Shown here piece by piece: positions 2,106-15,711 of a stretch of DNA of 64,000 nucleotides. Under the pieces are notes generated by a model, which did not search any database, was not told the origin of the DNA, and saw only the letters and a list, made by a program, of their open reading frames with translations. Positions within the stretch are counted from its first letter, which is position 1. Each line of letters begins with the position of its first letter. This DNA is from Pseudomonadota bacterium (lineage in GTDB: Bacteria; Desulfobacterota; Binatia; Binatales; Binataceae): contig JAJPIG010000011.1 in assembly GCA_021324855.1 (NCBI GenBank), positions 130,877 to 194,876 on the forward strand. Direction: 5' to 3'. The position numbers and the translations under genes are program-made.

Positions 2106-4559
2106 TTATTCGAGCATACGCTGCTGAATTGCGTCGAAGCAAGCTCCTGCCACCGCCGAGCGAAACTCCTCGAATTTGATGGCGAGCTTCTCCTCCGTCA
2201 GTTCCATCAGTTTCGATGCGCGACGTTTCGAGCCGATCGAGAGCACCGCGTAGACCGCATCGGGCTCATCGGGATGGCTCAGGGGAAGCGAAAGGATGAC
2301 TTCGTCTGAAATCTCGGAACCACTCTCGGAGACCACGCCGCCGTCGATCGGCACGAAGTAGAACGGGGCGCTCTCCAGCAGCGCGCGCTGCTTGATGAAC
2401 AGACGGCTGCGGCGGCTCTTGAACGCCCGCCCGGCGATACCCGCGCCGTACTTCAACCTGAGCCGCCAGCGCGGATCGTCGGCGACGAACGTGGCTGCGA
2501 CGATTCGCAACTCGCGCGCCTTCGCGTCGTAGGCCATCAGATCCAGATCGAGCGGATCTTCGGTGCGATCGGCAAGCCCGAAATGTTCGCGTGCGATCTC
2601 CTCAAGGGTGACCAACAGCGCGCGCATCGGATCGTCCGCGGAGGTCGGCGTCGCGAGGCCGAGGAGCCATTGCGACATATCGTGTACTGCGCCAACCAGC
2701 GCCGCGTTGGCACCAATTCTCGGCTCCGGCGCAAGCCGCCATCGCACCTGGTATCGCAGGCCGAGCGGAGGATGCGGGATGCGCAGAAAAAGCACGTTAA
2801 TTTCGCGGCTGTAGAAAAGATTCTGCCGCAACCGATCGGCGACGGCCGAGGCGGGCTGTCCGGAAACCGCGTGGGTTATCAGCAGTTCTGGTTGGCCGTC
2901 GATTACGAAACCCTGCGGGAAATTCACGATTACCACCAGCTCGGCATAGGGACAATGCTGCAGGGTAACCATCGCGGATTCGATCGGCGCGCCGGCGTCA
3001 CCGTACATCTCGCGGTACTGCTCCTGCGACATCGCGTAAGCGTTGATTCCCCAATAGCCCCAAGTGTAGTTGACGGGCGGATCTTCGAACGTGAGTTGCC
3101 GTCCGAAATCGATCGTGGCCGACTGCGACCCCGGCTTGGGATCGGGGTCGCGCTGCAACTGGAGCCCCGCGGTCCATCCGAGAGGCAGCGGATGGGCGTC
3201 GAAGCGTTCGACGCGCCCAACCAGCGATCCGGCGTTCACCTTGTACGGCAGCTTGTCGAGCGGCTGGGCGCCCTTGCCGATCTTGAAGCCCCAGATCTCG
3301 TAAACATGACGCGCGTCGCCGTCCTCATTGATGTTGATCAGCGACATCAGCGTGCCGCCGCTGAAGCCGCGCTGGTCAGCCGCCTCGATGAACTTGCGGC
3401 GTGCGGAAACCTCAGGCTCCTGCGCCCAGAATGCCTGTCCGGGCCGGAAAGTGCCGCCATCCGCGATGTAGGGCAGGACACGTGCGTTGCCGTCGGCTTC
3501 GATCGTCAGCAGATTGAAATTGAAGCCGAAGCGTCCGGGGCGTCGACCGGCGGTCGCGGTGCCCGCGGCCAGTACGCTCGCCTCGAACTGCTCGTTCATC
3601 CCGGCATTGATCGTGACGCGTGAAAAATGATGGTGATGCTTATGGCCGTGCAGCACCAACGGTATCCGCTGATTGCTGATCTCGCTCAGGAACGCACCCG
3701 CATCTTCCATGATCATCAGCGGTTCCTGGCTGGTGTCGTAAGGGATCGGCAGCGGATGATGGTGCAGCAGCGCAATTCGATAGCGCGGCTCGGGCGGCGG
3801 TTCATTCGGTTTGGAGCCGTCGAGGGTGCGCCATTCGGGCGGCTCCTGCGCCTTTACGAATTCCGCCGGACCGATCTCGCCGCGTGCATACTTGCGACCG
3901 CGCGACGAGGAATCGAACGGATAGATGGCGAGCCGAAGATCGGTCCAATGCGTCGGCCGAATCAGCAGATAACTTTTGAACGTTTTTGTGAAATCGCCGA
4001 AACAAGCCACTCGTGCAACCAACGCCGTAATGACAGCCGCGGCCACCGGATAAACTGCCCAGCCCCAGCCCAGGTTCGTGAACAACCGCAGGGCCGCGTA
4101 CAAAACGGCGCAGATGACGAGGCCGATAAGCGGGACCAGCCATTTGAGCCATCGGATCGGGCAGATGCCGAGCACGCGGACATCATGGTTGCCGGTCACG
4201 AGCAGCAGATTGTTGATCGGCGCGCCCGCCTGAGTTTTGGCCGATTCGCGGGCCAGCATCTCAAGGGCCTTGAGGGCGCGCTTGAGCGTCCAGCGAAAGG
4301 GGCTGTTGACGAGATCGCCCGTGACGATAATCAGATGCGGAGCGTGCTCGCGGACGATGCGGCGGAGATTGTTCCACAGCGGGCCGTTGAAGCCACGGCC
4401 GAAGTGAAGATCGGAAAGATGGGCGATGCGGATCGTGGAATCGTTGGGCGCGGATGCGGGCGCCGCGCCGGGAGCCAGTGGCGCAGGTTCGCCGGCGGCG
4501 GGAGGTTTCCCTCCGGGAGCGGGCTCGACCGGCGTCGCTTGCTCGATCGCGGCAGCCAT
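2106..4559 (-). CDS. membrane-inserted calcineurin-like metallophosphoesterase with a long C-terminal extension (GAF-like region)
   Basis: MPE motifs LSDLHFG, GDLVN, GNHD, HHHPL and HGHKHHHH are split by predicted TM helices (WLKWLVPLIGLVICAVLYAALRLF, VYPVAAAVITALVARVACF). The C-terminal ~450 aa include a GAF-like GIAGRAF segment. Confidence 0.7.
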   Translation of the reverse strand: MAAAIEQATPVEPAPGGKPPAAGEPAPLAPGAAPASAPNDSTIRIAHLSDLHFGRGFNGPLWNNLRRIVREHAPHLIIVTGDLVNSPFRWTLKRALKALEMLARESAKTQAGAPINNLLLVTGNHDVRVLGICPIRWLKWLVPLIGLVICAVLYAALRLFTNLGWGWAVYPVAAAVITALVARVACFGDFTKTFKSYLLIRPTHWTDLRLAIYPFDSSSRGRKYARGEIGPAEFVKAQEPPEWRTLDGSKPNEPPPEPRYRIALLHHHPLPIPYDTSQEPLMIMEDAGAFLSEISNQRIPLVLHGHKHHHHFSRVTINAGMNEQFEASVLAAGTATAGRRPGRFGFNFNLLTIEADGNARVLPYIADGGTFRPGQAFWAQEPEVSARRKFIEAADQRGFSGGTLMSLININEDGDARHVYEIWGFKIGKGAQPLDKLPYKVNAGSLVGRVERFDAHPLPLGWTAGLQLQRDPDPKPGSQSATIDFGRQLTFEDPPVNYTWGYWGINAYAMSQEQYREMYGDAGAPIESAMVTLQHCPYAELVVIVNFPQGFVIDGQPELLITHAVSGQPASAVADRLRQNLFYSREINVLFLRIPHPPLGLRYQVRWRLAPEPRIGANAALVGAVHDMSQWLLGLATPTSADDPMRALLVTLEEIAREHFGLADRTEDPLDLDLMAYDAKARELRIVAATFVADDPRWRLRLKYGAGIAGRAFKSRRSRLFIKQRALLESAPFYFVPIDGGVVSESGSEISDEVILSLPLSHPDEPDAVYAVLSIGSKRRASKLMELTEEKLAIKFEEFRSAVAGACFDAIQQRMLE

Positions 4560-4689
4560 CAGCTCGGCAAGTTAGCGAGAGAGATGACAGTTTGTCTATC
4601 GGCCGGAGACGCTTCACCCGCGTGTCGCTTCACGGTATGTTGATGGTCATCACCGAGGGGGCCCAGTTTCGTTTGAACGCGCGCAAGCT

Positions 4690-5203
4690 TTGCACCCGCA
4701 GGCGATCGACGCTCGCGATTGGCTGGGCTGGGGGACCGGCCGCTGCGAGGTGCCTGATGACTGCTCAACGGGGGGCGCGATTTTGAAGCCAGCTAGGTTT
4801 GTCGATTTGTTCTGCGGCATCGGCGGAATGCGTTTGGCCTTCGAAAGCGTAGGGTGCCGCTGCGTCTTTTCCTCTGACTGGGATGTCCACGCACAGAAAA
4901 CCTACTTCGCAAACTTCGGTGAGGTGCCGGCCGGTGATATTAGGCAGATCGCTTCGTCGCAGATTCCAGAGCACGAAATTTTGACCGCCGGATTTCCATG
5001 CCAGCCGTTCTCAATATCGGGTGTTTCAAAAAAGAAGAGCTTGGGCCGCGCACACGGGTTCCGCGATCGAATTCAAGGGCCTCTTTTTTTTTGAGGTTGC
5101 CCGGATCATTCGTGAAAAGAAGCCGCGAATTTGTCCAAGGGAGGGACGAGCACGATGCCTATCGCGACTAGGCGGAAGGCCGCCAAACCCAAGGTTCCAG
5201 TGA
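4690..5203 (+). pseudogene. DNA cytosine-5 methyltransferase (Dcm-type) remnant, frameshifted at a T9 homopolymer and truncated
   Basis: Track ORF 4690..5094 carries motif I (DLFCGIGG) and motif IV (GFPCQPFS). The continuation GPLFFEVARIIREKKPRI (5021..5203) lies in another frame across a T9 run (~5084-5092). No ENV or TRD/motif IX-X follows. Confidence 0.6.
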
Positions 5204-5415
5204 CGCCGGATGACTTCGAGAACACCGAGAAGTTTCAGGAGCATCTCGCCAAGCTCTCGGAGGGATGGGCCAGTGTCATTCGATGCTACAGCTGCAAACA
5301 GGTGGTCATGATTGTGATCAAAGATTTCACGGACATCGTCGGCGACTACAACGAATGGGACAGCGACTCCAAAGCCGTCTGGTGCGCCCGCTGCAAGCCG
5401 CAGGAAATCCTGTAA
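5131..5415 (+). CDS. small hypothetical protein with a CxxC...CxxC zinc-ribbon-like pattern (likely start ATG ~5155 after GGAGGG)
   Basis: CYSCK...CARCK cysteine pairs. RBS-like GGAGGG sits upstream of the ATG encoding MPIATRRK. Lower-GC segment. Confidence 0.35.
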   Translation: MSKGGTSTMPIATRRKAAKPKVPVTPDDFENTEKFQEHLAKLSEGWASVIRCYSCKQVVMIVIKDFTDIVGDYNEWDSDSKAVWCARCKPQEIL

Positions 5416-5481
5416 GCGAAGAGAAGCGAACCGGAACCGTCGACGTCGCGCCTTGCTAGGCTACGCGGAGGGGCGAGTAAG

Positions 5482-5718
5482 TTGGCTATTGTCAGGGAAC
5501 TGAAAATGCGAGTTTTAGAGTCGGACTCGCGACATACTGAGGCAGACGGCACTTATTCTATCGTCCACCGCTCAGACGGCAGCAAAGTTCTGCAGATCGA
5601 TACCTACGGCTCAAAACACCGCCGCCTTCCTGGCAAAGTGAGTCAATCGATCCGATTCTCGCCTGAAGCGCTCGAACAATTGAAAAAGATCCTCATGGAA
5701 AATTTCGGCGGCTCCTGA
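5482..5718 (+). CDS. hypothetical 78-aa protein in a lower-GC segment
   Basis: ORF only. No recognisable motif. Local GC is lower than the flanks. Confidence 0.25.
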   Translation: MAIVRELKMRVLESDSRHTEADGTYSIVHRSDGSKVLQIDTYGSKHRRLPGKVSQSIRFSPEALEQLKKILMENFGGS

Positions 5719-5835
5719 ACACAACGGTTCTCCGATTTTCCGGCCTGCGGCCGACCCGTAAAGCTGGGCTTTGCCATCCTGCGCTTCTCCGCCATACGGC
5801 TTCACGCTATAAGTTAATCAACAAAATCGAGGGGC

Positions 5836-7227
<1,392 letters not shown>

Positions 7228-7238
7228 CGGCGACGGCG

Positions 7239-8192
7239 CTAGCCGATCACAAAACGCGTGCCGACGCTGTTTTGCACGAACGCGTCCGGGAATTCGCGCG
7301 CGATCGCGTGAGTCGCTTTCCATCCGGTGCAGTGCGCCGGCACGACCATCGCCGGACCGATGTCCTTGAGCGCCTCAATTGTCGGCGCGATGATCGGCTC
7401 GAAGATCGGGCCCGAGAGATGGAACCCGCCGATGATCGCGTGAATCCGGCGCACTCCCGTCAGTTCCTGGGCATAGCGGATTGTGTTGATCGCGCCCGCG
7501 TGACCGCATCCGGTGAGCACTACGAGTCCCTTGTCGCGAACGTTTACGACCAGCGCCTGATCGTCGTGGATTAGCGGGTCGCGCTGCCATTCCTTTCCGA
7601 TTTTCGCCCAATGGGTCGGAAAGCCGGTTTCAAACGGCGTCGAGCGATGAATCTGCCCGGTAATCAGAACTGAGTTGCCGAGCAGGTACGACGGGCCGCG
7701 TTCCTCGATCAACTCGATTCCGTCGTGGCGCAGGACGCGCTTGTCGGGCGGCGGCAGCGCCATCTCGTGACCGTCCGGGAAGACTACCTTCCGCTGCAGC
7801 ATCGCATCGGGATGGATCAACAGTGGCATCTTTTGGTGGCCCATCCGGCGAAGCATCCCGGCAAGGCCGTTCGTATGGTCGAGATGACCGTGGCTCAGCG
7901 CGATTGCATGAAGTTCGTTGGGCTTGATTTCCAGCACGTCGAGGTTGTGCATCAGGCCGTCGCGGCTGAGCCCGGCATCGAACAGGATCGCCTCGCCGGT
8001 GTTGCCGGAAAAGACGCGCACGATGGCTGAGAAGCCATGTTCGGCGCGCAGCACCTTCTCGCCGAGCCGTTTGCCGCGCGGGAATCGCTGAACGGTCTGA
8101 TTACCCGGAAGGAGCATGTCGGCGGTATTGTCGAGAACCGTGGTTATTTCGAGTCTATCGACTTCTTTGAGTTTTATAACATCGTTATTCAC
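7239..8192 (-). CDS. MBL-fold metallo-hydrolase
   Basis: HxHxDH motif (SHGHLDHTNG) plus downstream His/Asp ligands. Confidence 0.75.
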   Translation of the reverse strand: MNNDVIKLKEVDRLEITTVLDNTADMLLPGNQTVQRFPRGKRLGEKVLRAEHGFSAIVRVFSGNTGEAILFDAGLSRDGLMHNLDVLEIKPNELHAIALSHGHLDHTNGLAGMLRRMGHQKMPLLIHPDAMLQRKVVFPDGHEMALPPPDKRVLRHDGIELIEERGPSYLLGNSVLITGQIHRSTPFETGFPTHWAKIGKEWQRDPLIHDDQALVVNVRDKGLVVLTGCGHAGAINTIRYAQELTGVRRIHAIIGGFHLSGPIFEPIIAPTIEALKDIGPAMVVPAHCTGWKATHAIAREFPDAFVQNSVGTRFVIG

Positions 8193-8406
8193 TTTGTCCT
8201 CCGTTCTCCACCGTCCGCACCCCGTATCACCGGCCTGTTACGCGACGTAATCAGAACGACACGGTTTCAGCTTAGACCTACTTTATTATGTCTTTACCAC
8301 CTTGATCATGCTTGACATTTTGTACGTAAAGTTAGATGGTGAAAACAGGGCGGAGGATGGATAGAGGGCTTTGGCAGAAGCATTGCCTACTTAAAATCTC
8401 GCGTAT

Positions 8407-8655
8407 ATGGCACAAACCATGGCTTCTGAAGACGAAATATTCACCATCAAGGAACTCTCCGAACATCTGCGCGTCCATCCGACAACCATCTATCGCCTCC
8501 TGAGACAGGGTCGATTGCCCGGCTTTCGCGTCGGCAGCAACTGGCGCTTCAGCCGCGAAGCGATCGAGCAATGGGAGCGCGATCAAGCCGGTCGATCGTC
8601 GGGCGTCTCGCGGCGCGGACAGCATAAAAAAGCGCGCGCGGCGGCTCCGAATTGA
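8407..8655 (+). CDS. excisionase-family helix-turn-helix DNA-binding protein
   Basis: IKELSEHLRVHPTTIYRLLRQGRLPGFRVGSNWRFSREAIEQW matches the excisionase/MerR-like HTH (TIGR01764-type) pattern. Confidence 0.7.
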   Translation: MAQTMASEDEIFTIKELSEHLRVHPTTIYRLLRQGRLPGFRVGSNWRFSREAIEQWERDQAGRSSGVSRRGQHKKARAAAPN

Positions 8656-8663
8656 TTCCGTTC
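8649..8663. repeat. direct repeat GAATTGATTCC[G/C]TTC, copy 1 (overlaps stop codon of the HTH gene)
   Basis: Seen in sequence. Second copy at ~10699..10713. A 10-mer GAATTGATTC also occurs at ~39191. Confidence 0.3.
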
Positions 8664-8884
8664 CTCTCTTGCGCTCGTAGTCTAGCACGATCTGATTGAT
8701 TCGTTTCTTTGATGCACTTTCAGGCAGCCTGCGCTGAACGTCGCATCTGAATCTTCACCCGCTCGGCGTCGTCAACTGATGCACGCATCGCGACAGTTCG
8801 ATTCGCGATACTTGCGCGATTCCGACCCGCGATGCTAACCCGGAAGTTGGATTCGATGCATCTGCCGTAAGAGGAGGCATCCCG

Positions 8885-9529
8885 ATGGCCGACATACCGA
8901 AGTGGCGTGTCGCGGGGGATTGGTTCGATGTCTGTAGTTGCGACATCCCGTGCCCGTGCGAGTTCGCTCAGCCGCCCACCAATGACCGATGCTTCGGCGT
9001 GCTCGCCTATCATGTTCGCGAAGGCCGCTTCGGCGATGTCGCGCTGAACGGTCTCAACCTGGTTCTGGTCGCCTCATTCAGCGGCAATCTATGGGCGGGG
9101 AAGGCGCGCGACCTGCGGATGGGTCTGTTCCTCGATGCGCGCGCGAATGATCGGCAGCGCGATGCGCTCGGGATGATCTTCGGCGGACAGGCGGGCGGCT
9201 TCCCGGCGTGGCTCAACGGGGTCACCGGGCATGCGCAGATGCTCGGTATGGAAGTCGCGCCAATCAAGTTCGAAGTCGCCGCCGATCTCACCAGTTGGAG
9301 CGCCGAGATCGCGGGCAAGGTGAATGCAGCCGCGCGCGCCCTTGGCGGACCGACCACGCCCAAGGGCAAGCTAGTGCAGACGCTCAATCCGCCGGGCTCC
9401 GAGACCGGCGGCGCGGTCGCGACCTGGGGTGACACGACAGCGAACCGCGTCGACGCGATGGGCCTCAAGTGGGACATTACCGGCAAATCGAGCAAGCACA
9501 TCCCCTTCGATTGGTCCGGCCCGGGCTGA
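8885..9529 (+). CDS. DUF1326 domain protein
   Basis: N-terminal WF.VCSCDIPCPCEF cysteine cluster typical of DUF1326. RBS GAGGAGG upstream. Confidence 0.65.
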   Translation: MADIPKWRVAGDWFDVCSCDIPCPCEFAQPPTNDRCFGVLAYHVREGRFGDVALNGLNLVLVASFSGNLWAGKARDLRMGLFLDARANDRQRDALGMIFGGQAGGFPAWLNGVTGHAQMLGMEVAPIKFEVAADLTSWSAEIAGKVNAAARALGGPTTPKGKLVQTLNPPGSETGGAVATWGDTTANRVDAMGLKWDITGKSSKHIPFDWSGPG

Positions 9530-9715
9530 TCGCGCGGAAACGTTTTTCGGAAACCTTTAGACCGTCGCGTCCCGCTCGCACTTCCATCGGGTTTCACCCG
9601 GGCGCTGCGAGCTTTTCAGAGCATGCCGAGCCGCGGATGAAGGCTCTTCCGCTCCTGACGAACTACTTTTTGCACGATCCCGGCGCAATTACACTTGGTG
9701 TCAAACTCAAAGGTC

Positions 9716-10537
9716 TTACCTCCCAAACGGTGCCCAGATTGTTCCCCGCTTCGGCGAGAGAAATTCGTCGATGGGCGTGTCTCTCTTCTCGACCACCGCC
9801 ACGAACGGATACAGATGTACCGACCGCACGGCCGATTGAAACGCAGTCGCCGTGCAGACCAGCCGTCGATCCTGGTTGTCGAAATTCCGTTCCCATCGCT
9901 GGCTCGCATTTAGATTACTCGCGAATCCGTAGATATATGCTGCGAATCTGTTGTGGGCGAAGTGGAGATCCTCGCATAGATAGACGCCGCCTGCCCGCAA
10001 GTGTGGAAGCAGTTCCTCGAATGTGGCTATCTGCTGTTCGCTCTGATGCCCCCCATCGTCGATGACGATATCGAGCTCTGGTACATCCTTTTTGAACTGT
10101 CTCCAAAACCCGCGGTCGGCCTGATCACCAATGAAAACCTTGATTGAACCGTCCTCGTAGGCCTTGCAGGCCGGTTCGATGTCGACGCCGTAGATCCTGG
10201 CTTTTGGACCGAAATACTCCCTCCACATTTCGAGACTGCCGCCGCTGTAAATCCCGATTTCAAGGATATGAACTTCCCTTCCCCGAAATCGGCTGAAGTG
10301 CCTGTCATAAATGTCGAAGTAGTGTTTCCACTTCCAGATTCCATGCCCTTCCTTACGGGCCTCGAAAAACTTCTCCAGATCGCTCTGCTCGGCTTGTGGC
10401 CCTTTCGTCCCTGAACGGCAGGGCCAGAGCTTTGAACGGCGCCAGTTCGAATAGCCGCGCCGGAACGAATTCATCTGTGGCACGGCCGACGCGAGCCGCC
10501 TAAAGGGTCTTGTCACCTTTCTAAACATCAATTGCAC
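9716..10537 (-). CDS. class I SAM-dependent methyltransferase (CmcI/TylF-like fold)
   Basis: Gly-rich motif I (ILEIGIYSGGSLEMW), acidic motif (IVIDDGGH), WKWKHYFDIYDRHF N-terminal segment. Confidence 0.6.
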   Translation of the reverse strand: MQLMFRKVTRPFRRLASAVPQMNSFRRGYSNWRRSKLWPCRSGTKGPQAEQSDLEKFFEARKEGHGIWKWKHYFDIYDRHFSRFRGREVHILEIGIYSGGSLEMWREYFGPKARIYGVDIEPACKAYEDGSIKVFIGDQADRGFWRQFKKDVPELDIVIDDGGHQSEQQIATFEELLPHLRAGGVYLCEDLHFAHNRFAAYIYGFASNLNASQRWERNFDNQDRRLVCTATAFQSAVRSVHLYPFVAVVEKRDTPIDEFLSPKRGTIWAPFGR

Positions 10538-10698
10538 CGAAGAAAATCTCGCGCCTCGAAGCTCCGGGGCGCGGCCGTAAGGATCGCATGAGGTTCTCGC
10601 CGAGTGTCTAAAAAAAACGGTGGCGGGTGCGAAACATTTGCTAACATGGGTACTTTCAAGATCATTTCTGGCGTACGCGCGCTAAGCGCAATGGCGCA

Positions 10699-10713
10699 GA
10701 ATTGATTCCCTTC
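10699..10713. repeat. direct repeat GAATTGATTCC[G/C]TTC, copy 2
   Basis: Matches 8649..8663 at 14/15. Together they bracket the DUF1326 and methyltransferase genes. Confidence 0.3.
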
Positions 10714-10909
10714 GATCCTTTCCGCAAAGCACAACCGCCAAACGTTCCCGGCGATGTAGCTCTAAAAGACACCGATCTGCGATGTCAAGCTGCGCCTCGA
10801 TCGACAGGCAGGCGGAAGATTTTTAGTCACGTGTCGTGGTTTTTCCCTGTTTAAGAAGAGTCAAGCCTCCTTAATTCGTCTTAACGGACCCCTAATCAGG
10901 AGGAGGAAA

Positions 10910-11146
10910 ATGAGAATTCACGCGGGCGCCAGCGCCGTCACACGCCTTCAGGATCAAGCGGCAGCATCTGGTGCTGCAGGCCGAAACTGCCGGGGAAAAC
11001 TGTGGGCTAATCTCGTTGGTGTTGGCTGTATTTGCGGCCTCTTCGCTCACTTACGCGGACATCACACATACGTGCATGATCCCGACGGCCGCCTGGTGGG
11101 CGTCATCGATGCGTCAGGAAACGTAGTGACATACGTTGGGAACTGA
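10910..11146 (+). CDS. YD-repeat (RHS-like) fragment ORF ending exactly at the junction with toxin-module copy 1
   Basis: Strong RBS GGAGGAGG before the ATG. C-terminus HTYVHDPDGRLVGVIDASGNVVTYVGN matches the YD-repeat consensus. A TGA stop falls at the first bases of the conserved block. Confidence 0.4.
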   Translation: MRIHAGASAVTRLQDQAAASGAAGRNCRGKLWANLVGVGCICGLFAHLRGHHTYVHDPDGRLVGVIDASGNVVTYVGN

Positions 11147-11250
11147 AGTATCCGGGCGGACGGCCGGCGGCTCAGGGAGCGACCACCGGCCAATACCCGG
11201 AATGGGCGCCGGGGCAGGAACCGCTGGCGGGGCGGGTTATGTTGGTGGGC
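11133..11250 (+). repeat. conserved ~115-nt block, copy 1 (encodes RWELKYPGGRPAAQGATTGQYPEWAPGQEPLAGRVMLVG)
   Basis: Near-identical at nucleotide level to 12207..12320 and 13390..13507. Confidence 0.8.
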
Positions 11251-11550
11251 GATTATTCAACCCCGGGGGCGACTGCAAATTCGACGCCCCGGCCGCAGAC
11301 GTCTTCTCCGACACCATCCCCAACGGCCCGCTCCGGAAGCCGCTTTTCGAAGGCGTTCAGCGTATGCATAGCCAACGCGCTCGCTGGCCCATTGATTATT
11401 CCTCCGATAGTCTGCGGGGCGAGCGGATACGCATGCGCCCAGGGTTTTGGGATTGCTGAACCAGCTTGCCAAGTAGCAATACCATTTTGCACTGCGACGA
11501 TCGCAACCATCGGTGCATGCGCGACAGGCGTCGGGACGCCTGAGTTCTAG
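11239..11550 (+). CDS. polymorphic-toxin-like C-terminal module, copy 1 (Ser/Thr/Pro-rich linker plus hydrophobic Cys-containing tail); reading frame extends upstream to ~11125, out of frame with the YD ORF
   Basis: Frame-1 translation ...IRWELKYPGGRPAAQGATTGQYPEWAPGQEPLAGRVMLVGDYSTPGATANSTPRPQTSSPTPSPTARSG...CIANALAGPLIIPPIVCGASGYACAQGFGIAEPACQVAIPFCTATIATIGACATGVGTPEF. The track start is only the first in-frame Met. Confidence 0.4.
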   Translation: MLVGDYSTPGATANSTPRPQTSSPTPSPTARSGSRFSKAFSVCIANALAGPLIIPPIVCGASGYACAQGFGIAEPACQVAIPFCTATIATIGACATGVGTPEF

Positions 11551-11586
11551 AGATGTTATGAGAAGCCGTATCATGAGGCTCCATTT

Positions 11587-11964
11587 ATGCAGAATGTAAA
11601 CCTAACAAAGGGGACTCGAAGAACGATTAAAATCGCAATCTGCGCGATACTGATCGCGCAGGTATTAGGAAACATATGCTTATGGTATTTGAAAGCGGGG
11701 CCTGGCAACATGCGAATAGACCCGCGCCTGATTTTCTTGATTTTGCCCGGAATGATTTATTTGATGTGCACAAACGTACCATATGTGCTCGAAAGCTCGG
11801 AGGGCATTAAGCGTCAGGCCATTCATTACGCGAACTGGGCGCTGGCGTTCGGAATCTGGCAATTCTTAGCGCCGATTGGGCAGAGCGCTCTGGTCGCGCT
11901 CTTCGCAGTTGGTGTAGTGATAATGGTGCTTTCTGTGAAAGATGCTATTCGGGTCGAAGCATAG
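11587..11964 (+). CDS. small polytopic membrane protein (putative cognate immunity protein for module 1)
   Basis: ~4 predicted TM helices (IKIAICAILIAQVLGNICLWYL, LIFLILPGMIYLMC, WALAFGIWQFLAPIG, ALVALFAVGVVIMVL). Lower GC. Sits immediately 3' of module 1. Confidence 0.45.
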   Translation: MQNVNLTKGTRRTIKIAICAILIAQVLGNICLWYLKAGPGNMRIDPRLIFLILPGMIYLMCTNVPYVLESSEGIKRQAIHYANWALAFGIWQFLAPIGQSALVALFAVGVVIMVLSVKDAIRVEA

Positions 11965-12011
11965 CCCTGCTTAAGCGGCCATCCCGGTTGGAACCGTTGG
12001 GTTAGCGACCT

Positions 12012-12611
12012 GTGTCGCGGGCACCGCGGGCCGTGGCGGGATCCGACTTCATCGCTTCTCTGATCGCCGCTGACTTTACCGTGGGCATGATCGATCCGGC
12101 CGATCTGATTCCGGCCGCGGCGATCGCCGAGGCTCTCTATGAGATTGCCGACCTGTTCGGGCCTCGATCTGATCGGCGGCGGCCATCCGTACATTCCGCC
12201 GATTACACGTTGGGAACTGAAGCATCCGGGCGGACGGCGGCTCGGGGAGCGACCACCGGCCAATCCCCGGAATGGGCGCCGGGGCAGGAACCGTCGGCAG
12301 GCCGGGTTATGTTGGTTGGCCAGGTTTTCACCACCGCCCCGTATGCCCCATGCCAAGGCGAATGGATACCTCGGCGCCCCCCGGAAGCGTTAGGCTGGGC
12401 AGGCACCGGTACCGGGAGAGGGGAGGAGCCTGCCAATGGGGATGTGGGTTGTAGACAGTTCTGGGGATGCCGCAACTGTGATGACTGCTCCTTTGACTTA
12501 TACTCTGGGACAGGTCCATGGACGATTGGAAGGGGCGATGGCTGTGTAGCCGCTCCGGCCAGCCCGCAGAAGGGTTGTCCTGATATGAAGTTTTGGCGAG
12601 GACATAGATAG
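12012..12611 (+). CDS. polymorphic-toxin-like protein, copy 2 (conserved N-terminal region plus Cys-rich C-terminal domain)
   Basis: N-terminal IAADFTVGMIDPADLIPAAAIAEALYEIADLFG, the conserved block, then the variable tail CQGEWIP...VGCRQFWGCRNCDDCSFDLYSG...QKGCPD. The internal segment is in a shifted frame relative to copy 3 (+1 then -4 nt). Confidence 0.5.
   Translation: MSRAPRAVAGSDFIASLIAADFTVGMIDPADLIPAAAIAEALYEIADLFGPRSDRRRPSVHSADYTLGTEASGRTAARGATTGQSPEWAPGQEPSAGRVMLVGQVFTTAPYAPCQGEWIPRRPPEALGWAGTGTGRGEEPANGDVGCRQFWGCRNCDDCSFDLYSGTGPWTIGRGDGCVAAPASPQKGCPDMKFWRGHR
12207..12320 (+). repeat. conserved ~115-nt block, copy 2 (4 nt shorter)
   Basis: Nucleotide-level near-identity to copies 1 and 3. 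Confidence 0.8.
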
Positions 12612-12625
12612 GGGGCACACGGACC

Positions 12626-13165
12626 GTGAGAATTCTACGGGCTAAAGTCTATTTCCTTTTAATTTTAATTTTTCTTATAAGTACGATCGGCGCTGAGCAG
12701 CGACCCGCTGATGCTGCTCAACGTCCGAGCGCTCTGTTGCTTTATCCCAAGGCATCAAACGTCTCGTCCGGACGGAATGGAAACGACCTCACTTATCACG
12801 TCAATGTTAAGTATCCTGCCTCCGATTTTATCGGCTGGATTTCCAACAGGTTACAGGAGTTAGGCTGGGAGCCCCTTAAGGAGGATTTCCTGAACCCGGG
12901 CCTTCCAACATCTCAAGTAAGAGGCTGGTTGGAGTTCGTCGATGAGCGCAAAAAGCCTGAATTGATTCATCAATGGATCGGCGATTGGAAGGACTCCTCC
13001 GGAAACATCGTACGTTATGCACTTCGGTACAGGAAGCCCGGATATGGTACTTCCGACTTGACTGATTTGGAGGTGATAGCTTCGTACGATTCGGCCTCGA
13101 CTGTGCGCAAGCTACAGCGGAGCGTCGAACGATTCAAAGAGACTCAACAGCGATCCCCTCACTAA
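12626..13165 (+). CDS. secreted protein with signal peptide (putative immunity protein A)
   Basis: N-terminal signal peptide (VYFLLILIFLISTIGA). ~45% identical to the 13833..14339 product (shared FLNPGLPTSQVRGW and DWKDSSGNIVRYA). AT-rich start. Sits immediately 3' of module 2. Confidence 0.5.
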   Translation: MRILRAKVYFLLILIFLISTIGAEQRPADAAQRPSALLLYPKASNVSSGRNGNDLTYHVNVKYPASDFIGWISNRLQELGWEPLKEDFLNPGLPTSQVRGWLEFVDERKKPELIHQWIGDWKDSSGNIVRYALRYRKPGYGTSDLTDLEVIASYDSASTVRKLQRSVERFKETQQRSPH

Positions 13166-13168
13166 CCC

Positions 13169-13801
13169 TTGCTCAAGCGGAGCTTCGTCACCGTGGGCGA
13201 CGGCGCCGCCGCAGGCATGGAGGCGTGTAATGCATTCATCGCCGCTGATCTGGCGTTCGGCGATACGAATCCCGGCACCGCGTTGCCGGCTTGGGCGGTG
13301 GCGGCGATCGCAGAGGCAATTTATGGGATTGCCGACCTGTTCGGCCTCGATCTGTTCGGCGGCGGCCATCCGTACATTCCGCCGATCATACGTTGGGAGA
13401 TAAAGCATCCGGGCGGACGGCCGGCGGCTCAGGGAGCGACCACCGGCCAATACCCGGAATGGGCGCCGGGGCAGGAACCGCTGGCGGGGCGGATCATGTT
13501 GGTGGGCGTGAATGATTGTGGCGGCGAATGGGTGAATACAAAGTCTCGCGACAGTTTGGTCATCTGCTCCCCCAACTATGGCTGCGCGACTCTCGGGTGT
13601 CTTTGTTACTGGGGGTGTCGAGAGTGCGACGGCTCCTTTGACCTATACTCTGGGGACGTAGAGTCCGGGAACGGGCCCACCACGCGAGGCATACCGCTGG
13701 GCAATGGTGGTTGCTCTTGCTTGAATTATCCGGGTCCACAGCAAGGTTGCCAAAAGAATAACCCGCCTGGTCCTGGTATTTGGCGCCGCCGAAACCCTTA
13801 G
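13169..13801 (+). CDS. polymorphic-toxin-like protein, copy 3 (intact frame)
   Basis: AADLAFGDTNPGTALPAWAVAAIAEAIYGIADLFGLDLFGGGHPYIPPIIRWEIKHPGGRPAAQGATTGQYPEWAPGQEPLAGRIMLVG followed by the Cys-rich tail CGGEWVN...CLCYWGCRECDGSFDLYSG...QQGCQK. Confidence 0.55.
   Translation: MLKRSFVTVGDGAAAGMEACNAFIAADLAFGDTNPGTALPAWAVAAIAEAIYGIADLFGLDLFGGGHPYIPPIIRWEIKHPGGRPAAQGATTGQYPEWAPGQEPLAGRIMLVGVNDCGGEWVNTKSRDSLVICSPNYGCATLGCLCYWGCRECDGSFDLYSGDVESGNGPTTRGIPLGNGGCSCLNYPGPQQGCQKNNPPGPGIWRRRNP
13390..13507 (+). repeat. conserved ~115-nt block, copy 3
   Basis: Nucleotide-level near-identity to copies 1 and 2. Confidence 0.8.
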
Positions 13802-13832
13802 ATTTGATGGCCAGGGCGTTAGGAGTATCAAT

Positions 13833-14339
13833 ATGGCGGTTCGAGGCAAGATTTTCGCGGTCTGGGCTATAATTGGTTTAGTCTTGATTCAGGTACATTT
13901 TGTCTACACGCGCGAATATCCTGAAGCACTGCTTGAGTACCCTAGCGCTAAGGCTGCGAAATATAGCGAGGTCGAGGGCAAAACACAGCTTGACTACTTC
14001 TTGGACACCAAGTTTCCCGCTTCAGGGGTGATTGGCTGGGTTTCCGATCACCTTAAGGATGCCGGATGGAAACCACTCACGCATGATTTTCTGAATCCGA
14101 CATTACCCTCATCTCAGGTACAGGGTTGGCGTCACTTCATAGACGGAAGAGGAAAACACGATATCTGCGTTCATGCCTGGACGGGGGACTGGACGGACGC
14201 CTCCGGGAATGTTGTCACGTATGCTTTTATATACCGGACCGTTGATTGTAGCACTTCACATTTGACCAATCTTGAAGTGTTGGTCGTATATTATCCTGCG
14301 CAAACTGCAGAGCAATTCAGAAAGCTCGGAGGCGGATAG
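13833..14339 (+). CDS. secreted protein with signal peptide (putative immunity protein B), paralog of 12626..13165
   Basis: Signal peptide (IFAVWAIIGLVLIQV). Shares FLNPTLPSSQVQGW and DWTDASGNVVTYA with immunity A. Sits immediately 3' of module 3. Confidence 0.5.
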   Translation: MAVRGKIFAVWAIIGLVLIQVHFVYTREYPEALLEYPSAKAAKYSEVEGKTQLDYFLDTKFPASGVIGWVSDHLKDAGWKPLTHDFLNPTLPSSQVQGWRHFIDGRGKHDICVHAWTGDWTDASGNVVTYAFIYRTVDCSTSHLTNLEVLVVYYPAQTAEQFRKLGGG

Positions 14340-14383
14340 CGGCCCGCGGGCTCAGCCCTGCCTCAGCCTGGCCAGCCGAAGAA

Positions 14384-14500
14384 CTCATCGCCGCCGATCT
14401 GACGTTCGGCGATACCAATCCCGGCACGGCGTTACCGGCTTGGACGGTGGCGGCGATCGCCGAGGCCATCTATGGGAGTGCCGACCTGTTCGGGCCTCGA
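14384..14500 (+). pseudogene. truncated fourth copy of the toxin-module N-terminal region
   Basis: ELIAADLTFGDTNPGTALPAWTVAAIAEAIYGSADLFG matches the copy-3 N-terminus at nucleotide level. It carries the copy-2-type variant ttcgggcctcgatctgatcg, then diverges and terminates. Confidence 0.45.
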
Positions 14501-14619
14501 TCTGATCGCAGCCCCCCGCATCGCACGGTTCTTTGCCCTCGCCCAAATTGGGGGAGGCTGAGGGCGCCTGAAGGTCCGATTGACATATGCCCTCTGAGGT
14601 GCGGTGATTTGAGCGGCGC

Positions 14620-15711
14620 ATGATGGCGGGGCCAACCAAAGAATTGCTCATGGTCGGGAGCGTGCCGCTCGATACGGCGGAGGAAGTGATGCGCGCGCTC
14701 GCTGAAAAGCTGGGCCCATCGCTCGATTGCTTCCCCGACGGCGAGGTCGGCGAGCGTCATCGATGGATCACGTTCCAGGCCTATCGCGTGATGCACGGTC
14801 ATCCTGAGATCGAGACGCTCACCCGGCCTGCACCGATCAACGGGGTCGAAAGCTGGCGTCCCCGTGACATCCACGATTACTGGAGCTTCCGCGTTCGTCC
14901 CGGAGTCGAGCGCGTGCGCTTCGGCGATCCCGGATGGCGGCTCGGCTACGCGCACGACGCGGCCAATTCCTATTTTGTCTTCAAGACGCTCCGCGCGCAG
15001 GGCGTGATTCCCGCCGCCGCGCGCTTCCAGGTCTGCATCCCATTGCCGCTGAGCGTGCTGTATCTCCAGTTTCGCGATCCCGCGGATTGGGATCGCGTGG
15101 GGCCGGGCTACGAAGCCGCGATGCGTGACGAGATCGCGACTATCGTGCGGCAGATTCCCGCGCGCGACCTCGCGATCCAATGGGATTGCGCGAGCGAGAT
15201 GGTCGACCTTGAAAATTTCCTGCCGTGGACGCCGGGCGAAGGCAAGCTCGAGCGGCTCGTTGGGGAGATCGAACGGCTCAGGATGAGCGCGATTCCCGAG
15301 GACGTCTGGCTCGGGCTCCATCTCTGCTACGGCACGCTCGGCGGATGGCCGATGGTGATGCCCAAGGATTTCGGGCTCTGTGTTCAGGTCGCCAACGCGG
15401 CGGCCGCGGTTGCCGGACGCCGATTCGATTTCATCCATATGCCGGGGCCGGCGAATCGCTTCGACGACGATTTCTATCGGCCGCTCAGCGATTTGAAGAT
15501 ACCCGGCGCGCGCATCTACCTCGGCATGATTCACGATCACGAGCAGGACGCGGAGCCGCTGCGCCGGCGGATCGAGGTGGCGCGGCGTTATCTCCCGGAA
15601 TTCGGACTCGGCGCGCCGTGCGGCTTCGGTCGCCGCAAGCGCGAGGAGATTCCGCGCGCCTTGGAAGCGCATCGTGTCGCCGCGGAAACCTTGCGCGCAT
15701 CGCAAGCCTGA
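14620..15711 (+). CDS. MetE C-terminal-domain-like (UroD/MetE superfamily) putative Zn-dependent methyltransferase, paralog of 50080..51138
   Basis: Motif order resembles cobalamin-independent methionine synthase: DLAIQWD (cf. IQIDE), LHLCYGT (cf. HMCYS His/Cys Zn ligands), C-terminal GAPCGFGRR (cf. PDCGLKTR). Clear paralogy with the 50080 gene. Confidence 0.5.
   Translation: MMAGPTKELLMVGSVPLDTAEEVMRALAEKLGPSLDCFPDGEVGERHRWITFQAYRVMHGHPEIETLTRPAPINGVESWRPRDIHDYWSFRVRPGVERVRFGDPGWRLGYAHDAANSYFVFKTLRAQGVIPAAARFQVCIPLPLSVLYLQFRDPADWDRVGPGYEAAMRDEIATIVRQIPARDLAIQWDCASEMVDLENFLPWTPGEGKLERLVGEIERLRMSAIPEDVWLGLHLCYGTLGGWPMVMPKDFGLCVQVANAAAAVAGRRFDFIHMPGPANRFDDDFYRPLSDLKIPGARIYLGMIHDHEQDAEPLRRRIEVARRYLPEFGLGAPCGFGRRKREEIPRALEAHRVAAETLRASQA

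What the first reader, a model, noticed from the sequence alone, without database searches (positions are those of the whole stretch)
10910..11250. YD-repeat ORF terminates exactly at the start of the conserved block; module 1 continues in a different frame
The 10910 ORF has a strong RBS and a YD-repeat-like C-terminus (YVHDPDGRLVGVIDASGNVVTYVGN). Its TGA lies at the first bases of the conserved block (acgttgggaacTGAag), and module 1 reads on in the -1 frame. This looks like a fossil recombination junction between an RHS/YD-repeat gene and the toxin module. It ties the modules to an RHS-type delivery scaffold. Programmed frameshifting is less likely.
Basis: partly seen in the sequence, partly recalled or inferred. 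Interest (0 to 1): 0.6.

Follow-up and report, generated by a model that had tools for sequence, protein, structure and literature searches.

The report
Broken RHS fragment heading orphan toxin array
A short reading frame ending in one RHS/YD repeat is joined, one base out of frame, to the first of four tandem "orphan" toxin–immunity cassettes of an RHS-type toxin family; this is an ordinary recombination scar in a known kind of locus, not a recoding signal.

Summary
ORF 10910-11146 (78 aa) sits behind AGGAGGAGG and ends in one YD/RHS-type repeat. Its TGA (11144-11146) lies 15 bases into a 122-nt block that recurs at 12200 and 13387. Module 1 continues in the -1 frame.

Relatives place the block between the end of an RHS core and variable toxins, always in one frame. 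They are metagenome contigs L005, L007 and L008, proteins P0026 and P0007, the 1323-aa RHS protein P0010, and MAG loci L009 and L010. Relative to these, module 1 lacks at least about 450 nt: the core end and a hydrophobic linker.

The join falls on a 7-nt string, CATACGT. This string is present both in the YD coding pattern and at the block start of module 3, but one base out of register. That fits a microhomology-mediated deletion.

There is no slippery heptamer and no unusual downstream structure, and a second assembly carries the same junction. The module 1 toxin and its immunity gene are intact, so module 1 is a silent cassette.

The locus is an array of orphan RHS toxin/immunity modules without a full-length rhs gene in the window. 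It is a new member of a known kind, of low to moderate interest.

The parts
10898..10906 (+). Shine-Dalgarno-like AGGAGGAGG, 3 nt upstream of the ATG at 10910
   Evidence: Read directly from the sequence.
10910..11146 (+). 78-aa ORF. The N-terminal 48 aa have no detectable relatives. The C-terminus is one RHS/YD repeat. The stop lies inside the block.
   Evidence: The only match among 5.8 billion proteins is itself. GC3 is 0.54 against 0.69-0.86 in housekeeping genes of the window.
11069..11134 (+). YD/RHS repeat unit (YVHDPDGRLVGVIDASGNVVTY)
   Evidence: PF05593 E 9.5e-4; TIGR01643 18.4 bits, above its 15.8 cutoff. Custom core-end profile: 10.0 bits, 0/2000 shuffles.
11130..11136 (+). Junction microhomology CATACGT. 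It reads as ..T-Y-V.. on the YD side and as ..I-R.. on the block side, one base out of register.
   Evidence: ACATACGT recurs at 11066 in the preceding YD motif. CATACGT sits at 13387, the block start of module 3. About 2.6 occurrences of CATACGT are expected per strand in the window.
11144..11146 (+). TGA stop of the 78-aa ORF, bases 15-17 of the block
11130..11251 (+). Conserved block, copy 1 (IRWELKYPGGRPAAQGATTGQYPEWAPGQEPLAGRVMLVG). This is the constant pre-toxin segment of this RHS subfamily.
   Evidence: 116/122 identical to 13387-13508. Aligns to P0002 residues 183-218.
11080..11550 (+). Module 1 in its true frame: block, Pro/Ser/Thr spacer and a Cys/Ala/Gly-rich hydrophobic toxin tail. 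The frame is open from 11080, and the first start codon in it is the ATG at 11239.
   Evidence: The tail is 45% identical over 88 aa to the C-terminus of the RHS-CT protein P0026, and both end in ..PEF.
11587..11964 (+). Putative immunity gene 1 (125 aa, three hydrophobic segments)
   Evidence: Position directly after the toxin. Hydropathy peaks of 1.7-2.4. Function is inferred.
12012..12611 (+). Module 2: linker, block and Cys-rich toxin, with a +1 insertion (within 12152-12168) and a -4 deletion (near 12234)
   Evidence: Identical in JGI contig L006.
12626..13165 (+). Putative immunity gene 2 (179 aa, N-terminal hydrophobic anchor)
   Evidence: 40% identical to the gene that follows a homologous Cys-rich toxin in L010.
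13169..13801 (+). Module 3: intact linker, block and Cys-rich toxin in one frame (contains P0001, 202 aa)
   Evidence: The toxin is 33% identical to the C-terminus of full-length RHS protein P0010, E 3e-7.
13833..14339 (+). Putative immunity gene 3 (168 aa)
   Evidence: 41% identical to the L010 immunity gene.
14340..14510 (+). Module 4 remnant: linker only, carrying the same +1 G as module 2. Homology breaks off near 14508.

Best explanation
The region 10910-14510 is an array of orphan RHS C-terminal toxin/immunity cassettes. Three are complete and a fourth is a stub. No full-length rhs gene lies in the window.

In this RHS subfamily the protein runs in a fixed order: YD-repeat shell, core end (RYYSPxMGRxLSxxGP), Gly-rich stretch, hydrophobic linker, constant block (GGGHPYIPPxxRWExKHPGG...AGRVMLVG), variable toxin. 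A small immunity gene follows.

The 78-aa ORF is what remains of RHS core coding sequence at the head of the array. An illegitimate, microhomology-mediated deletion joined a YD repeat (...ACA TAC GT...) to the start of the block (...C ATA CGT TGG...) through the shared CATACGT. Because the string lies in different codon phases on the two sides, the product is one base out of frame. The deletion removed at least about 450 nt, comprising the core end and the linker.

The YD frame therefore stops 15 nt into the block, and module 1's true frame has no start codon before the ATG at 11239. The module 1 toxin is not made as a deliverable RHS protein. It persists as a silent cassette, and its intact block could still recombine in frame with a full-length rhs gene. 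Its immunity gene can still protect the cell.

Shown: the sequence anatomy, the frames, the homology boundaries and the in-frame architecture in relatives. Inferred: the deletion mechanism and size, the silence of the cassette, and the toxin and immunity functions.
For: - Sharp homology boundary at 11130: 116/122 identical inside the block, 10/60 just upstream.
- The YD repeat is supported in the ORF frame up to Tyr 11132-11134, so the YD and block sides overlap by at least 5 nt. CATACGT or ACATACGT occurs at 11066/11067, 11129/11130 and 13387.
- Relatives read RHS core end, linker, block and toxin in a single frame. These are L005 (3D-domain toxin), L007, L008, P0007/L009 (PLA2 toxin), P0026 (module 1-type toxin) and P0010 (1323 aa, signal-peptide-like N-terminus, DUF6531, five RHS repeats, module 3-type toxin).
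- In P0002 the last YD hairpin and RWE are 149 aa apart.
- The module 1 tail matches the P0026 C-terminus at 45% over 88 aa. imm2 and imm3 match the L010 immunity gene at 40-41%.
- L010 is likewise an orphan array headed by a 5'-truncated core next to an unrelated gene.
- Orphan rhs-CT/rhsI modules are described in PMC3150448. They retain upstream rhs sequence, sometimes carry in-frame stops, and mostly lack start signals.
- The junction is identical in ENA contig L001, an exact match over 11,394 nt.
Against: - The RHS assignment of the ORF rests on one repeat with modest scores. It is below the Pfam gathering score, and E is 0.41 in the window-wide six-frame control.
- The first 48 aa have no significant RHS similarity, and the ORF has no homologue.
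- Neither parental sequence is available, so the microhomology and the deletion size are inferred from paralogues and distant relatives.
- No full-length rhs gene of this organism could be found. The window has none, and the block is absent from 185,579 species genomes.
- The strong RBS in front of a supposed remnant is not explained.
Confidence: 0.8

Rival explanations
1. The YD resemblance is chance. The 78-aa ORF would be an unrelated small gene or non-coding DNA. Position 11130 would simply be the left edge at which an orphan cassette (block, toxin, immunity) was inserted or truncated. It is still a recombination boundary, but not one with an RHS gene.
For: There is only one repeat. PF05593 gives 20 bits against a gathering score of 22. 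The custom profile gives E 0.41 across 1254 six-frame segments, and an unrelated segment scores 6.7 bits. The N-terminal 48 aa are not RHS-like. The ORF has no homologues.
Against: TIGR01643 scores above its cutoff. 0 of 2000 shuffles reach the observed score. The best-scoring segment of the whole window directly abuts modules that relatives show to be RHS C-termini. The repeat period is visible in the DNA, with ACATACGT 63 nt apart.
Confidence: 0.12
2. A single-base assembly or sequencing error. The ORF would really be in frame with the block, giving a protein of about 213 aa that runs from the YD repeat through the block to the toxin.
For: One missing base anywhere in 11080-11143 would fuse the frames. 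Contigs L001 and L002 end at or next to block copies, which shows the repeats troubled short-read assemblers.
Against: The 263-kb source contig and the MEGAHIT-style contig L001 agree exactly over 11.4 kb including the junction. There is no long homopolymer at the site. Block-1-specific SNPs lie within 20 nt of both block edges, and the stretch identical to module 3 is only 81 nt, so a chimeric path is unlikely. Even if in frame, the product would still lack the core end and linker present in every relative.
Confidence: 0.05
3. Functional recoding or internal initiation. One version is a low-level -1 slip from the YD ORF into module 1. The other is initiation at the conserved ATG at 11239. Either would produce a shell-less toxin inside the cell, acting like a toxin-antitoxin pair.
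For: The ORF has a strong RBS. The frames overlap by 64 nt. A non-canonical heptamer A GGA AAC lies at 11116-11122. A Met is conserved at the end of the block in all copies. Salmonella Rhs-CTs are expressed from internal promoters and starts and behave as type II TA modules (PMC7043789).
Against: No X XXY YYZ heptamer lies in the productive stretch. The only one, GGGAAAA at 10993, runs into a -1-frame stop at once. The nearest hairpin starts 29 nt after the non-canonical heptamer, and the downstream fold has z 0.15. The arrangement is not conserved: relatives are in frame and the ORF is unique. The Met is part of a conserved peptide, not a recognisable start site.
Confidence: 0.03

Closest known systems
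Orphan rhs-CT/rhsI modules downstream of rhs genes (Dickeya dadantii 3937 rhsC locus, Yersinia pseudotuberculosis, Salmonella Typhimurium; PMC3150448, PMC7043789)
   Same: Both are tandem cassettes of a variable C-terminal toxin plus a small immunity ORF. Each cassette is preceded by a piece of constant rhs sequence. The toxin parts mostly lack their own start and sometimes carry stops in the retained upstream sequence. [quoted passage not shown]
   Different: No full-length rhs gene or T6SS gene is adjacent in this 64-kb window. The toxin boundary is not the PxxxxDPxGL motif. It lies about 150 aa further on, after a hydrophobic linker and a constant block that no Pfam or NCBIfam model covers. 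Module 1 has an internal out-of-frame deletion rather than a simple 5' truncation.
Orphan cdiA-CT/cdiI arrays of contact-dependent inhibition loci (E. coli EC93, EC869; PMC3150448)
   Same: Both are arrays of silent toxin/immunity pairs that keep a short constant segment upstream of the variable toxin, lack initiation signals, and may serve as an immunity repertoire or a toxin reservoir.
   Different: The delivery protein family differs (CdiA/two-partner secretion against RHS). The demarcating motif differs (VENN against the block ending ..AGRVMLVG-D).
The "C-terminal displacement" model of rhs evolution (Jackson et al. 2009, BMC Genomics; cited from my own knowledge, not read here)
   Same: The model explains a series of displaced toxin tips, each with a fragment of core or constant sequence, downstream of or detached from the main gene.
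   Different: The model invokes homologous exchange at the core/tip boundary. The junction studied here is an illegitimate, out-of-frame join on 7 nt of microhomology.

Membership tests
RHS/YD-repeat polymorphic toxin locus (orphan rhs-CT/immunity array) | Sequence derived from an RHS/YD-repeat scaffold is present | tested here: inconclusive
   One repeat at ORF residues 56-75. TIGR01643 gives 18.4 bits, above its 15.8 cutoff. PF05593 gives 20 bits, below its gathering score of 22. 0/2000 shuffles reach the score, but E is 0.41 in the window-wide control. No other RHS fragment lies in the window.
RHS/YD-repeat polymorphic toxin locus (orphan rhs-CT/immunity array) | The constant 5' part of each module is homologous to the region that follows the RHS core in full-length RHS proteins | tested here: met
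   The block and linker align to P0002, L005, L007 and L008, where they directly follow an RHS core end. Their equivalents do so in P0010 (1323 aa, DUF6531 plus five RHS_repeat) and in L009.
RHS/YD-repeat polymorphic toxin locus (orphan rhs-CT/immunity array) | Canonical core-end motif PxxxxDPxGL marks the start of the toxin region | tested here: not met
   The motif is absent from the window. The nearest relatives have RYYSPxMGRxLSxxGP instead, and toxins diverge only after the block (..LVGD).
RHS/YD-repeat polymorphic toxin locus (orphan rhs-CT/immunity array) | Variable C-terminal toxin domains sit on a constant stem, each followed by a small cognate immunity ORF | tested here: met
   Module 1 has an unrelated tail, while modules 2 and 3 share a homologous Cys-rich tail. 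Relatives carry PLA2, 3D-domain and other tails after the same block. The toxin/immunity pairing is conserved with L010. Toxicity and protection were not tested.
RHS/YD-repeat polymorphic toxin locus (orphan rhs-CT/immunity array) | Linked full-length rhs gene and secretion apparatus (VgrG/PAAR/T6SS or other) | tested here: not met
   No large RHS ORF and no T6SS gene lie in the 64-kb window. The neighbours are housekeeping genes (mnmG, yidC, mutS2, thiolase). The rest of the genome could not be searched.
Programmed -1 ribosomal frameshift site | Slippery heptamer X XXY YYZ in the zero frame within the overlap | tested here: not met
   None lies in 11080-11143. The only one in the ORF (GGGAAAA, 10993) leads into an immediate -1-frame stop.
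Programmed -1 ribosomal frameshift site | Stable stimulatory structure 5-9 nt downstream | tested here: not met
   The fold of 11147-11260 gives -46.9 kcal/mol against a shuffle mean of -47.4, z 0.15.
Programmed -1 ribosomal frameshift site | The two-frame arrangement is conserved in relatives | tested here: not met
   Relatives are in one frame through the block. The upstream ORF has no homologue.

The most novel reading that the evidence does not exclude
The out-of-frame overlap would be used rather than dead. A rare -1 slip (for example at A GGA AAC, 11116-11122) or initiation at the conserved ATG at 11239 would let the cell make a shell-less module 1 toxin. The membrane immunity protein would keep it in check, as in a toxin-antitoxin pair. 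The strong RBS of the YD ORF would serve as the translational entry point for the orphan array.
Probability: 0.03. Interest if true: 0.6.

Novelty: new member of a known kind. Interest (0 to 1): 0.25.

Why it matters
The finding assigns a run of unannotated ORFs (10910-14510) to a known biological system: interbacterial RHS toxins with spare toxin and immunity cassettes. It also gives a base-level example of how such cassettes are damaged, through an out-of-frame deletion on 7 nt of microhomology.

The RHS subfamily itself is the more useful by-product. It is rare: two protein clusters share the block in a word-indexed search of 5.8 billion proteins, four metagenome loci carry it, and none of 185,579 reference genomes does. 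It lacks the canonical DPxGL boundary. Between core and toxin it carries an undescribed constant region, a hydrophobic linker plus the GGGHPYIPP..RWE.KHPGG block, which appears to be the segment shared between cassettes. That region may interest people who work on polymorphic toxins. It does not change current understanding.

Tried and rejected
- Homologue search with the 78-aa ORF returned only itself.
The scan with the trimmed block alignment found no relative in 185,579 species genomes. A full-length rhs gene of this organism could therefore not be examined.
- I tested whether the ORF's C-terminus derives from the immunity gene, because imm3 also carries DASGNVVTY. All nine codons differ at the third position and there is no DNA homology, so I rejected this.
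- I tested whether the whole ORF, not just its end, is RHS core. BLAST gives collinear alignments to RHS core ends at E 0.004-0.005. A profile test of the N-terminal 48 aa is not significant, with 100 of 2000 shuffles doing as well. This remains unproven.
- GC3 and frame analysis of the ORF was inconclusive.
- The promoter and terminator scan of 10400-14800 found no more sites than in shuffles.
- A hydropathy test for a signal peptide in the ORF gave a maximum of 1.41, so no clear signal or TM segment.
- Slippery-site and structure checks for frameshifting were negative.

Full report
**What is in the sequence**

ORF 10910-11146 (+) starts at an ATG three bases after AGGAGGAGG (10898-10906). 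It encodes 78 aa ending ...HHTYVHDPDGRLVGVIDASGNVVTYVGN*.

A repeat search finds a 122-nt block in three copies, at 11130-11251, 12200-12321 and 13387-13508. Further shared sequence lies upstream of copies 2 and 3, and there is a fourth, partial copy near 14385-14508.

At single-base resolution, module 1 and module 3 are 116/122 identical inside the block. They are only 10/60 identical just upstream and 16/60 just downstream. The block therefore starts sharply at 11130 and the toxins diverge at 11252.

The ORF's TGA occupies 11144-11146, bases 15-17 of the block. The block's protein frame (IRWELKYPGGRPAAQGATTGQYPEWAPGQEPLAGRVMLVG) is -1 relative to the ORF. That frame is open from 11080 to the stop at 11548-11550, and its first start codon is the ATG at 11239.

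**Is the ORF's end really a YD repeat?**

- Pfam RHS_repeat matches residues 56-75 at E 9.5e-4 and 20 bits, just under the gathering score of 22.
- NCBIfam TIGR01643 scores 18.4 bits, above its cutoff of 15.8.
- A profile I built from the core-end region of 77 RHS relatives aligns residues 49-74 to the last hairpin before the Y-x-Y-D-P-x-G motif.
- With that profile the C-terminal 30 aa score 10.0 bits, and 0 of 2000 shuffles reach it.
- In a six-frame control over the whole window, the ORF's segment is the best of 1254. However, E is 0.41 there and an unrelated segment scores nearly as well.

The first 48 aa give collinear BLAST alignments to RHS core ends, but these are not significant by the profile test (100/2000 shuffles). 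The ORF has no homologue among 5.8 billion proteins. The YD call is reasonable, mainly because of where it sits, but it rests on one repeat.

**What the modules are**

The intact module 3 protein has only one relative in the word-indexed protein search, P0002. P0002 is an orphan-like fragment. It reads, in order: last YD hairpins, RHS core end (YYKPGRYYSPLMGRPLSSTGP), Gly-rich stretch, hydrophobic helices, GGGHPYIPPLTRWEIKHPGG.

A metagenome scan with the block found L005, L007 and L008, and a full HMMER search with P0002 found many more. In all of them the order is RHS core end, linker, block (or its equivalent), variable toxin, in a single frame. The toxins differ:

| Relative | Toxin after the block |
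|---|---|
| L005 | 3D domain |
| P0007 and L009 | phospholipase A2 |
| P0012, L010 and P0010 | Cys-rich domain homologous to modules 2 and 3 |
| P0026 | hydrophobic Cys/Ala/Gly-rich tail homologous to module 1 |

These rest. The module 1 tail is 45% identical over 88 aa to the P0026 tail, and both end in PEF.

P0010 is a complete 1323-aa protein with a signal-peptide-like N-terminus, DUF6531 and five RHS repeats.

The genes after modules 2 and 3 are 40-41% identical to the gene after the homologous toxin in L010. This is the co-conservation expected of toxin/immunity pairs. imm1 has three hydrophobic segments, and imm2 and imm3 have an N-terminal anchor.

The window holds no other RHS sequence and no secretion-system genes. 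The neighbours are housekeeping genes. L010, from a Deltaproteobacteria-labelled MAG, is also an orphan array headed by a 5'-truncated core next to an unrelated gene.

This is the known organisation of orphan rhs-CT/rhsI modules (PMC3150448).

**The junction**

In P0002, 149 aa separate the last YD hairpin from RWE. Here nothing separates them, so at least about 450 nt are missing. More are missing if the surviving repeat is not the last one.

The join lies on CATACGT (11130-11136). On the YD side, the preceding repeat has ACATACGT at 11066, exactly 63 nt (21 codons) upstream, coding T-Y-V. On the block side, module 3 has CATACGT at its block start (13387), coding (I)-I-R.

The YD protein pattern needs the Tyr at 11132-11134, and block homology starts at 11130, so the two sides overlap by at least 5 nt. 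The shared string sits in different codon phases on the two sides. That accounts for the one-base frame offset without invoking any later mutation. I infer a microhomology-mediated deletion.

**Alternatives**

*Frameshifting.* A productive -1 shift would have to occur between 11080 and 11143.
- No X XXY YYZ heptamer lies in that stretch. The only one in the ORF (10993) meets a -1-frame stop at once.
- A non-canonical A GGA AAC lies at 11116-11122, but the nearest hairpin begins 29 nt later.
- The region downstream of the stop folds no better than shuffles, z 0.15.
- The arrangement is not conserved in relatives.

*Assembly error.* ENA contig L001 (15.4 kb, from a different assembly than the 263-kb source contig) matches the window exactly over 11,394 nt, including the junction.
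- There is no long homopolymer at the site.
- Block-1-specific SNPs lie within 20 nt of both block edges, which argues against a chimeric path through the repeat.
- The two assemblies may share reads, so this is not full independence.
- Even an in-frame version would still lack the core end and linker.

*Chance YD resemblance.* This remains the main rival. It would leave a recombination boundary but remove the direct RHS remnant.

**Verdict**

- The YD piece is best read as a truncated remnant of the 3' part of an RHS core at the head of an orphan array.
- The module behind it is a silent but intact cassette, not a decayed one.

It is a new member of a known kind. The only mildly novel aspect is the rare RHS subfamily. 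It has no DPxGL motif, and it carries an undescribed linker-plus-block constant region that no Pfam or NCBIfam model covers.

Noticed in passing
window 12012-12611 (sites within 12152-12168 and near 12234); also L006: Module 2 carries a +1 G insertion and, 26 codons later, a -4 deletion (net -3). The 199-aa ORF stays open, but the most conserved part of the block is read off-frame (GPRSDRRRPSVHSADYTLGTEASGRTAA instead of LDLIGGGHPYIPPITRWELKHPGGRPAA). The same sequence occurs exactly in a JGI soil-metagenome contig, so it is not an assembly artefact of this record.
   Followed up: partly
window 14340-14510: A fourth module survives only as its linker. It has the same +1 G as module 2 (14485) and is 91% identical to the module 2 and module 3 linkers. 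Homology ends near 14508, before an unrelated 363-aa ORF with no Pfam match (14620-15711).
   Followed up: partly
window 14196-14222 (imm3), 12992-13018 (imm2); L010 3308-3856: The immunity proteins carry a YD-hairpin-like motif: DASGNVVTY in imm3, DSSGNIVRY in imm2 and DRSGNIVRY in L010. The imm3 peptide is identical to the end of the 78-aa ORF, yet all nine codons differ at the third position. This is a protein-level resemblance, not shared DNA.
   Followed up: partly
L003 and L004 (P0002 locus): In this related orphan the block is in one frame and a phospholipase-A2-like toxin (YCGPG...CCQAHDNCY) in another. It is another frameshifted cassette. Related protein P0007 has the same toxin in frame.
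   Followed up: partly
P0002, P0004-P0012, L005-L010; window 13169-13508: This RHS subfamily ends its core with RYYSP(L/V/I)MGRxLSxxGP instead of PxxxxDPxGL. It then has a Gly-rich stretch, hydrophobic helices and the constant block, and toxins diverge only after ..LVGD. No Pfam or NCBIfam model covers the linker and block. The block is absent from 185,579 reference genomes.
   Followed up: partly
window 10910-14510: Composition is mosaic. Immunity genes have GC 0.49, toxin tails 0.57-0.60 and constant blocks 0.66-0.70, against 0.61 for the window. This fits cassettes of foreign origin attached to a resident constant segment.
   Followed up: no
L001 (window 3193-14586) and L002 (window 11257-15360): Two short-read metagenome contigs of the same population end at or next to block copies: L002 starts 6 nt after block 1, and L001 ends just after the module 4 stub. 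The repeats evidently break short-read assemblies of this locus.
   Followed up: no
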